Assembly: GCA_951406725.2 (NCBI GenBank)
Contig: OX597827.1
Location: 1,550,001 to 1,614,000 of the forward strand
Length of the DNA: 64,000 nt
Source: Octopus vulgaris
Taxonomy: Eukaryota
Direction of reading: 5' to 3'
Part shown: positions 45,930 through 46,517 of the stretch, one piece after another
Position numbering within the stretch: the first letter of the stretch is position 1
How the letters are laid out: every line of letters begins with the position of its first letter
The notes under the pieces: model-generated
The model's database searches: none
What the model saw: only the letters and a program-made list of their open reading frames with translations
Told to the model about the DNA's origin: nothing
Made by a program: the position numbers and the translations under genes

Positions 45930-46517
45930 ATATATATAATCATGTCAAAGGGAAATGGAATTTAATTAAAATTAAAACATTCAATCAAAATTTACATTTC
46001 CAGTGGCCTAACGTGCAAAAAAATTAGCCAAGAAGACTATATATTAGCCATACGATATAGTGTATATTTAAACACATAAGGAATCCACTTATAGGGAATC
46101 CAGCACGCTAGAAAGAACAGCTAGGTTCTGTAAACACAAAAATGATGGATAAAATTCGACAGGAATAAATTTGGAAATGTAAAACATTTACCATCTCGTC
46201 CCAGCGACTAGATGGTAAAAGTTAGTTTGTATAAACACGAGACAAGTAGCCTTGTTTGTCTCGTGTTGGATATCTTTAACCCTAGGTTGGACCTTGCTGA
46301 AGAAAATCAGACCTTGTGAGTTCTCCTTGACTCACTAAAAGATGATCGGAAACCAATTGGTCCAGGGACTAGATGGTAAATATTTTTCATTTCCAAATTT
46401 ATTCCTGTCAAATTTTATCCATTATTTTTGTGTTTACAGAACCTAGCTGTTCTTTCTAGCGTGCTGAATTCCCTATAAGTGGATTCCTTATGTGTTTAAA
46501 TATACACTATATCGTAT
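45930..46517. mobile_element. Fold-back PLE-type element: 153-bp arms 46050-46202 and 46365-46517, HHR in spacer, 120-nt left overhang
   Basis: Arms reverse-complementary with few mismatches; (TA)n on both sides. Confidence 0.85.
46292..46367 (+). ncRNA. Type I hammerhead ribozyme with intact core and GUC cleavage triplet
   Basis: ccttg-CTGAAGA-aa-ATCA..(gtgagt/actcac hairpin)..TGAT-cg-GAAA-CC-AATT-G-GTC-caggg. Stem III palindrome ACCAATTGGT; predicted cut after 46362; base of stem II is imperfect. Confidence 0.75.

What the first reader, a model, noticed from the sequence alone, without database searches (positions are those of the whole stretch)
45930..46517. Element arm begins at the predicted ribozyme cleavage site
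Seen: the HHR at 46292-46367 should cut after 46362. The opposite-strand arm (46202 toward 45930, carrying the full 3' overhang) stops matching at the position equivalent to 46363-46365, within 0-2 nt of the cut. A 14-nt direct copy of the post-cleavage sequence (gactagatggtaaa, 46206-46219) sits at the junction. Inference: this records reverse transcription of a self-cleaved RNA followed by template switching, i.e. genomic evidence that the ribozyme was active in vivo. It is a single observation and could be chance.
Basis: partly seen in the sequence, partly recalled or inferred. Interest (0 to 1): 0.7.

Follow-up and report, generated by a model that had tools for sequence, protein, structure and literature searches.

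The report
Retroelement ends pile behind ribozyme cut
This is one copy of a common non-coding jumping repeat whose copies break off two to three times more often just behind a predicted self-cutting RNA than just in front of it, which likely means that about a fifth of the copied RNAs had cut themselves; this single junction was likely inherited and proves little alone.

Summary
Observation confirmed: the minus-strand arm starts 2 nt from the predicted cut after 46362. The locus is a head-to-head insertion of a non-coding, roughly 507-nt hammerhead-bearing repeat (at least 218 anchor matches genome-wide) with Penelope-type hallmarks: partial tandems, two fixed 3' ends, (TA)n targets. 5' ends are 2.4-fold denser at +1..+26 than at 0..-25 (66 vs 21, p=3e-4), the step falls at -2 (support -7..+5), holds for both 3'-end classes, and is about 3-fold above what predicted RNA structure explains. 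But the peak is at +5..+13, not at the cut; 149 of 218 arms read through the cut; a third subfamily (30 arms) shows no step. This junction is shared with a sister copy 214 kb away, so is likely inherited, and the 14-nt copy is likely a later 9-nt templated patch absent there. Best reading: a minority of templates were self-cleaved (0.5); stalling at the uncut ribozyme (0.27) remains open. Cutting is untested. The scan noted similar junctions on other DNA of this genome. New member of a known kind.

The parts
45926..45936 (.). (TA)n target tract at the left end
   Evidence: sequence; most 3' ends of the family shown abut TA-rich simple repeats
45937..46202 (-). Left arm: element positions +3 to +271 (long 3' end), 5' end 2 nt downstream of the predicted cut
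46201..46207 (+). Inherited junction: CC microhomology plus AGCGA, native element sequence -180..-174; identical in sister copy L006/L174 (C14:1.81 Mb)
46206..46219 (+). 14-nt copy of +5..+18 (46367-46380); the 9 nt 46208-46216 replace 27 nt present in the sister copy; forms a DNA hairpin with the adjacent arm (-9.8 kcal/mol)
46217..46519 (+). Right arm: element positions -145 to about +157 (short 3' end); carries the whole, uncut ribozyme
46234..46267 (+). 13-bp RNA hairpin; family 5' ends are modestly enriched just 3' of it (-88..-94), an internal example of a likely structure stop
46282..46372 (+). Type I hammerhead-like motif: CTAG/CTAG helix, stem I CCTTG/CAGGG (46292-96/46363-67), core 46297-46303, long stem II with A.G at its base, palindromic 3-bp stem III, predicted cut after 46362
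   Evidence: no Rfam match
46287..46365 (+). Competing helix TTGGACC (46287-93) / GGTCCAG (46359-65) in the minimum-energy fold; buries the GUC and ends exactly at the base where the left arm starts
   Evidence: z = -0.72, so the fold is not unusually stable
46520..46555 (.). (TA)n-type target tract at the right end
   Evidence: sequence

Best explanation
This is a head-to-head insertion of a non-coding, hammerhead-bearing repeat, likely copied by a Penelope-type reverse transcriptase from both ends of a cut (TA)n target, and its family's arms end preferentially in the 25 nt behind the predicted ribozyme cut, likely because about a fifth of the RNA templates had already self-cleaved. Shown: unit anatomy, two fixed 3' ends, inverted pairing of arms, (TA)n targets, the excess of 5' ends and its step near the cut. 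Inferred: two-ended priming by a Penelope-like protein acting in trans (partner not found); run-off at the cleaved 5' end; trimming of the cDNA end back to a usable microhomology, which would shift simple insertions from +1 to the first TA steps at +5..+12; read-through of uncut or circular RNA for the other two thirds. This particular junction likely formed once in an ancestor of this copy and its sister 214 kb away; I put the chance that it came from a cleaved RNA at about 0.3. The 14-nt copy is likely a later fold-back or repair patch.
For: 66 ends in 4861 nt at risk at +26..+1 vs 21 in 3657 at 0..-25, ratio 2.36, p=3e-4; change point -2, support -7..+5. Ratio still 1.95, p=0.009, after removing 13 arms at a quasi-palindrome hot spot. 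Same step in long-ended (ratio 2.2, p=0.004, 99 arms) and short-ended arms (4.0, p=3e-6, 102 arms), so it is tied to element position, not cDNA length. A Poisson model of predicted opening energy fits the -86..-100 hairpin stop (9 seen, 9.5 predicted) but predicts 19-22 ends at +26..-1 where 60 are seen. Simple truncations: 15 of 68 at +12..+4, 3.3 expected. Inverted arms starting at +1 or 0: L084, L240, L256, L040, L057. Core intact in 42 of 52 long copies; compensatory changes in stems I and II, 92% of cells paired. Related coral and mussel repeats self-cleave in vitro and give linear and circular RNA in tissue (PMC7229834, passages).
Against: No peak at the cut: 0.97 ends per 100 nt at +4..-1 vs 1.83 at +13..+5; no simple truncation at +3..-1. 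The rate at +76..+27 is also high and not clearly lower than at +26..+1 (ratio 1.49, p=0.09). Third subfamily, 30 arms: no step (9/668 vs 9/452), with 10 of 21 ends inside -2..-26. A true-end-like pile-up at -197..-203 is sharper (10 ends in 7 nt). Stem II closes with A.A (A.G here) instead of G-C and the minimum-energy fold buries the GUC. In the anole element the ribozyme is dispensable in vitro and no RNA-seq ends were found at its cut (PMC11167929). Shared ancestry limits the covariation count.
Confidence: 0.5

Rival explanations
1. The reverse transcriptase stalls at the first helices of the uncut, folded (possibly protein-bound) ribozyme, so ends pile up at its 3' edge without any cleavage.
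For: Peak at +5..+13 sits at the foot of the CTAG helix and stem I; the competing helix ends at 46365, exactly where this arm starts; opening energy there is 4-6 kcal/mol; ends rise with predicted structure upstream of the cut (slope 0.185 per kcal, p=0.008); the third subfamily, with different helices, stops inside the ribozyme.
Against: Equal or stronger predicted barriers at -20..-30, -166..-178 and -86..-100 give no comparable excess; the model under-predicts +26..-1 about 3-fold. Tertiary folding and bound protein were not modelled.
Confidence: 0.27
2. Junction choice is driven by local sequence: the quasi-palindrome at +12..+35 and TA steps offer microhomology for joining or fold-back (including self-priming on an antisense template, as proposed for rotifer Penelopes), so the excess is a joining hot spot.
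For: Near-identical but not identical +12|+22..27 junctions recur at unrelated loci; TA/AT steps are 0.22-0.33 of positions at +4..+12 vs 0.13 overall; palindromes at inverted junctions are described in PMC3846280 (passages); the 14-mer itself makes such a hairpin.
Against: Excess persists without the hot-spot loci (ratio 1.95) and in simple truncations, 4.5-fold over expectation, more than the TA enrichment gives.
Confidence: 0.16
3. Chance or heterogeneity in cDNA length: the step near the cut is a coincidence of a falling truncation rate.
For: High rate already at +76..+27; no replication in 30 arms of the third subfamily.
Against: The step lies at the same element position for arms primed 114 nt apart; scan statistics p=0.007 and 0.003.
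Confidence: 0.07

Closest known systems
Metazoan non-LTR retrozymes (coral, mussel, axolotl; PMC7229834, passages; bioRxiv 10.64898/2026.07.22.740005, parts 1-3 of 5)
   Same: Non-coding unit with a type I hammerhead fold, tandem and partial-tandem copies, proposed dependence on Penelope-like elements
   Different: Unit 507 nt (170-400 nt in PMC7229834, within the 51-972 nt range of the preprint); mostly dispersed, truncated and inverted copies; circular RNA not shown here; atypical base of stem II
Penelope-like element insertions with pLTR, inverted 5'-truncated copy and tail (PMC8557442 and PMC3846280, passages)
   Same: Partial tandems, head-to-head inverted truncated copy, optional 3' extension on one arm, microsatellite targets, microhomology joins, palindromes at the inverted junction
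   Different: No RT/GIY-YIG ORF; the extension is about 114 nt rather than 30-40; no coding partner with shared sequence found
Poseidon element of the green anole, PAc (PMC11167929, parts 1-3 of 4)
   Same: Two internal RT start sites and nicking of both strands at AT-rich DNA would produce exactly the long-end/short-end arm pairs seen here
   Different: There the ribozyme was not needed in vitro and no RNA-seq ends were found at the cut; here genomic 5' ends show a step near the cut
PLE hammerheads with small palindromic helix III (PMC4209133, parts 1-2 of 4)
   Same: Palindromic short helix III, extra nucleotide after position 9, long helix II, a splice-acceptor-like site just 5' of helix I
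   Different: No plain G10.1-C11.1 pair: an extra A stands before GAAA; stem II is interrupted and much longer
R2 elements with 5' HDV-like ribozymes (presence cited in PMC4209133; that full-length 5' ends follow the cut is recalled, not read here)
   Same: Idea that a ribozyme cut sets the 5' end of the copied RNA
   Different: Different ribozyme and element class; here at most a minority of templates and a blurred end

Membership tests
Type I hammerhead ribozyme | Core CUGANGA, GAAA, NUH in order | tested here: met
   46297-46303, 46349-52, 46360-62; both halves intact in 42 of 52 long copies
Type I hammerhead ribozyme | Three helices with open stem I, supported by compensatory change | tested here: met
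   92.4% of 432 cells paired, 4 of 23 pairs with two-sided change, 19 sequences; sequences are related, so support is moderate
Type I hammerhead ribozyme | G10.1-C11.1 pair directly against the core | tested here: not met
   A follows the core and A precedes GAAA in nearly all copies; A.G in the window copy. Hence called hammerhead-like
Type I hammerhead ribozyme | Match to an Rfam hammerhead model | tested here: not met
   none at gathering score or among 23 matches to E=10
Type I hammerhead ribozyme | Self-cleavage | not testable with these tools
   needs in vitro assay or raw RNA reads
Non-LTR retrozyme | Non-coding unit | tested here: met
   no long ORF tied to the unit among loci L001-L244
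Non-LTR retrozyme | Consecutive tandem units each with the ribozyme | tested here: met
   L059, L133, L150 carry two successive ribozyme-bearing units
Non-LTR retrozyme | Monomeric linear and circular RNA in tissue | not testable with these tools
   only contigs of uncertain kind were offered
Autonomous Penelope-like element | RT plus GIY-YIG ORF | tested here: not met
   absent from the unit; the coding element found in the genome shares no sequence with it. Works like a PLE cargo, is not an autonomous PLE
Penelope-type insertion | Partial tandem and head-to-head inverted truncated copy | tested here: met
   151 of 263 arms abut an inverted arm, 35 a tandem unit
Penelope-type insertion | Two 3' ends (optional tail) and microsatellite target | tested here: met
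   3' ends cluster at +150..+170 and +265..+280, next to TA-rich repeats in most of the 44 examples printed
Penelope-type insertion | Tail of 30-40 nt | tested here: not met
   about 114 nt here
Penelope-type insertion | Retained intron ending at helix I | tested here: inconclusive
   GTAAGT at -229 and CTAG|G at -81 conserved in most of 52 copies; no spliced copy found; no RNA evidence

The most novel reading that the evidence does not exclude
The genomic 5' ends of this family are a fossil map of its RNA templates: a sharp end at -200 (transcription start), and a second class of about 20% ending at the hammerhead cut, i.e. a population-level record that an atypical hammerhead with an A.A closing of stem II cleaves in the germ line and that its product is a template for Penelope-type reverse transcription.
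Probability: 0.4. Interest if true: 0.65.

Novelty: new member of a known kind. Interest (0 to 1): 0.42.

Why it matters
What the hammerhead of Penelope-like elements does in vivo is stated as open in PMC4209133 and PMC8557442, and the one biochemical study found it dispensable (PMC11167929). If the step at the cut reflects cleavage, junction statistics give a cheap genome-only readout of ribozyme activity and show that cleaved RNA is copied, while most templates are uncut. The element type and the inverted layout are known, and a single junction is weak evidence.

Tried and rejected
Single-junction argument: rejected as evidence, the junction is shared with L006/L174. Segmental duplication of window and L174: rejected, flanks share only dispersed repeats. 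The 14-mer as run-off from +1: possible through the 19-nt match but less parsimonious than native -180..-174 sequence, which the sister copy shows. Sharp peak at the cut: not found. Replication in a third subfamily: failed. First hazard tables mixed in loci chosen for full length; one search is the corrected sample and is the one quoted; 5 anchors were dropped. Rfam: no hammerhead match. Sequencing runs: no RNA holder listed; contigs of 4 runs of guessed kind cover parts of the unit but cannot show ends; neither counts for or against. Coding partner: the 811-aa element met through L225 has no similarity to the unit; no wider partner search was made. Spliced copies: none. Alignment A1 held one wrong range and was redone as A2.

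Full report
Positions written +n or -n count from the predicted cut (+1 = 46363), on a real 507-nt unit taken from locus L007. The window is G000:C14:1550001-1614000 of a 2.8-Gb genome.

Observation. The inverted arms are 153 nt and 96% complementary; the left arm covers 45937-46202 and starts at the equivalent of 46365. The 14-mer at 46206-46219 equals 46367-46380 (+5..+18).

What the element is. A DNA search gave 49 scored matches from 40 of 1583 candidates; exact anchors gave 218 and 216 matches, with 0 for the reversed controls. Copies define a non-coding tandem unit of 507 nt. 3' ends fall in two classes, about +157 and +271, next to TA-rich repeats. Of 263 arms, 151 abut an inverted arm, 35 a tandem unit and 77 plain flank. 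This is the Penelope-type layout described in PMC8557442 and PMC3846280 (passages), and two RT start sites with nicks on both strands, shown for the anole element (PMC11167929, main text read), would produce such arm pairs (inference). A young coding element of this genome (811-aa ORF, RVT_1 E=3e-7, weak GIY-YIG match) shows the same two ends and inverted pairs, has no canonical hammerhead pattern in the one copy scanned and no similarity to this unit; so inversion does not appear to need a canonical ribozyme, and the partner is not identified.

The ribozyme. Core intact in 42 of 52 long copies; on 19 copies 92.4% of cells pair, with two-sided changes in stems I and II. Atypical: A.A, here A.G, at the base of stem II; no Rfam match; the minimum-energy fold buries the GUC in a helix that ends at 46365. 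The short palindromic stem III fits the dimer-type PLE hammerheads, which cleave weakly in vitro (PMC4209133, results and discussion read).

This junction. Locus L006/L174, 214 kb away with unrelated flanks, has the same arm end joined to the same native sequence (-180..-174), and a 1-nt deletion found only in the four arms of these two loci, 4 of 102 arms. The junction is therefore likely inherited. The sister has 27 native nt where the window has the 9 nt 46208-46216, so the 14-mer is likely a later templated patch flanked by GA and AAA microhomologies; it forms a hairpin with the adjacent arm. The right arm of this same insertion contains the uncut ribozyme.

The family test. Sample: 167 of 218 matches of the +26 anchor (complete for contigs 1-9 and part of 10, the rest), 95 of 216 matches of the +126 anchor (contigs 1-9) and 30 of 33 of a third-subfamily anchor, merged to 263 arms; L228 was removed as a segmental duplicate of L227; anchors under 600 nt from a locus edge were skipped; the sister's left arm lacks the anchors and is not counted. 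Ends per 100 nt at risk: +76..+52 1.04; +51..+27 0.74; +26..+14 1.17; +13..+5 1.83; +4..-1 0.97; -2..-12 0.63; -13..-75 about 0.43; -88..-94 1.38; -197..-203 2.67. Across the cut: 66 vs 21 ends, ratio 2.36, p=3e-4; change point -2 (support -7..+5). Without 13 hot-spot arms 1.95, p=0.009. Both 3'-end classes show it (2.2 and 4.0). Simple truncations: 15 of 68 at +12..+4 (3.3 expected), none at +3..-1; the simple/inverted label is automatic and imperfect (12 of 56). A structure model trained upstream predicts 19 ends at +26..-1 in the main subfamilies, 60 are seen, while it fits the hairpin stop at -86..-100; the excess of about 40 in 188 arms gives the one-fifth estimate. Against: no peak at the cut; 149 of 218 arms pass it; +26..+1 is not clearly above +76..+27 (ratio 1.49, p=0.09); the third subfamily shows no step and instead 10 of 21 ends inside -2..-26 versus 9 of 128 (p=1.5e-5), which I cannot explain; end calls are uncertain by a few bases through microhomology.

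Mechanism. Most likely (0.5): RNA read from tandem units, starting near -200 (inferred from the sharp, structure-free pile-up), is primed at +157 and +271 from the two ends of a cut (TA)n target; most templates are uncut or circular; a minority are cleaved, so cDNA runs off at +1 and is trimmed to the first usable microhomology, which for a TA target lies at +6 and beyond, whereas arm-to-arm joins can keep +1 (L084, L240, L256). Rivals: stalling at the folded ribozyme (0.27), joining hot spots or fold-back (0.16), chance (0.07). Only bench work separates the first two.

Known and new. The element works like a metazoan non-LTR retrozyme mobilised by Penelope-like elements (PMC7229834, passages; bioRxiv 10.64898/2026.07.22.740005, parts 1-3 of 5). 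My seven searches found no paper that maps genomic ends against such a cut. Earlier scan notes report similar junctions in other families of this genome and the opposite pattern in another genome; I did not test them and do not count them as support. Verdict: observation real, interpretation partly supported at family level, weak for this junction; new member of a known kind; interest 0.42.

Noticed in passing
family position -197..-203 (not present in the window copy; e.g. L008, L019, L023, L057, L082): Sharpest pile-up of 5' ends (10 in 7 nt, 1.2 predicted by structure): likely a true RNA 5' end such as a transcription start.
   Followed up: partly
third subfamily, L245-L274: 10 of 21 arms that pass the cut end inside the ribozyme (-2..-26), against 9 of 128 in the main subfamilies; unexplained.
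   Followed up: partly
L306:597-4689 (G000:C1:202.2 Mb) and L275-L314: Very young coding Penelope-like element: about 100 of the 150 listed copies identical over 189 aa, two overlapping ORFs (495 and 811 aa) suggesting a frameshift, two 3' ends about 40 nt apart, head-to-head pairs, no canonical hammerhead pattern in the copy scanned; non-canonical ribozymes not checked.
   Followed up: partly
family positions -229 and -81 (window 46282-46286 for the acceptor-like site): Conserved GTAAGT and CTAG|G suggest a retained 149-nt intron ending just before helix I, preceded by an ATG; no spliced copy found. Several inverted arms end at -77..-83.
   Followed up: partly
L063, L069, L098, L146, L161, L168: Recurrent inversion junction at +12|+22..27 at unrelated loci, at a quasi-palindrome.
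   Followed up: yes
L227 and L228 (C5:126.01 and 126.47 Mb): Inverted segmental duplicate including flank, 92-96% identical.
   Followed up: yes
L001 and L006: Both arms of L006 share a private base change absent from the window copy, suggesting conversion between arms after the shared junction arose.
   Followed up: no
window 1831, minus strand: A second, unrelated minimal hammerhead-like motif with a short stem II.
   Followed up: no
window 43691-44170: Another dispersed repeat set in (AAT)n tracts, found in 6 fetched loci.
   Followed up: no
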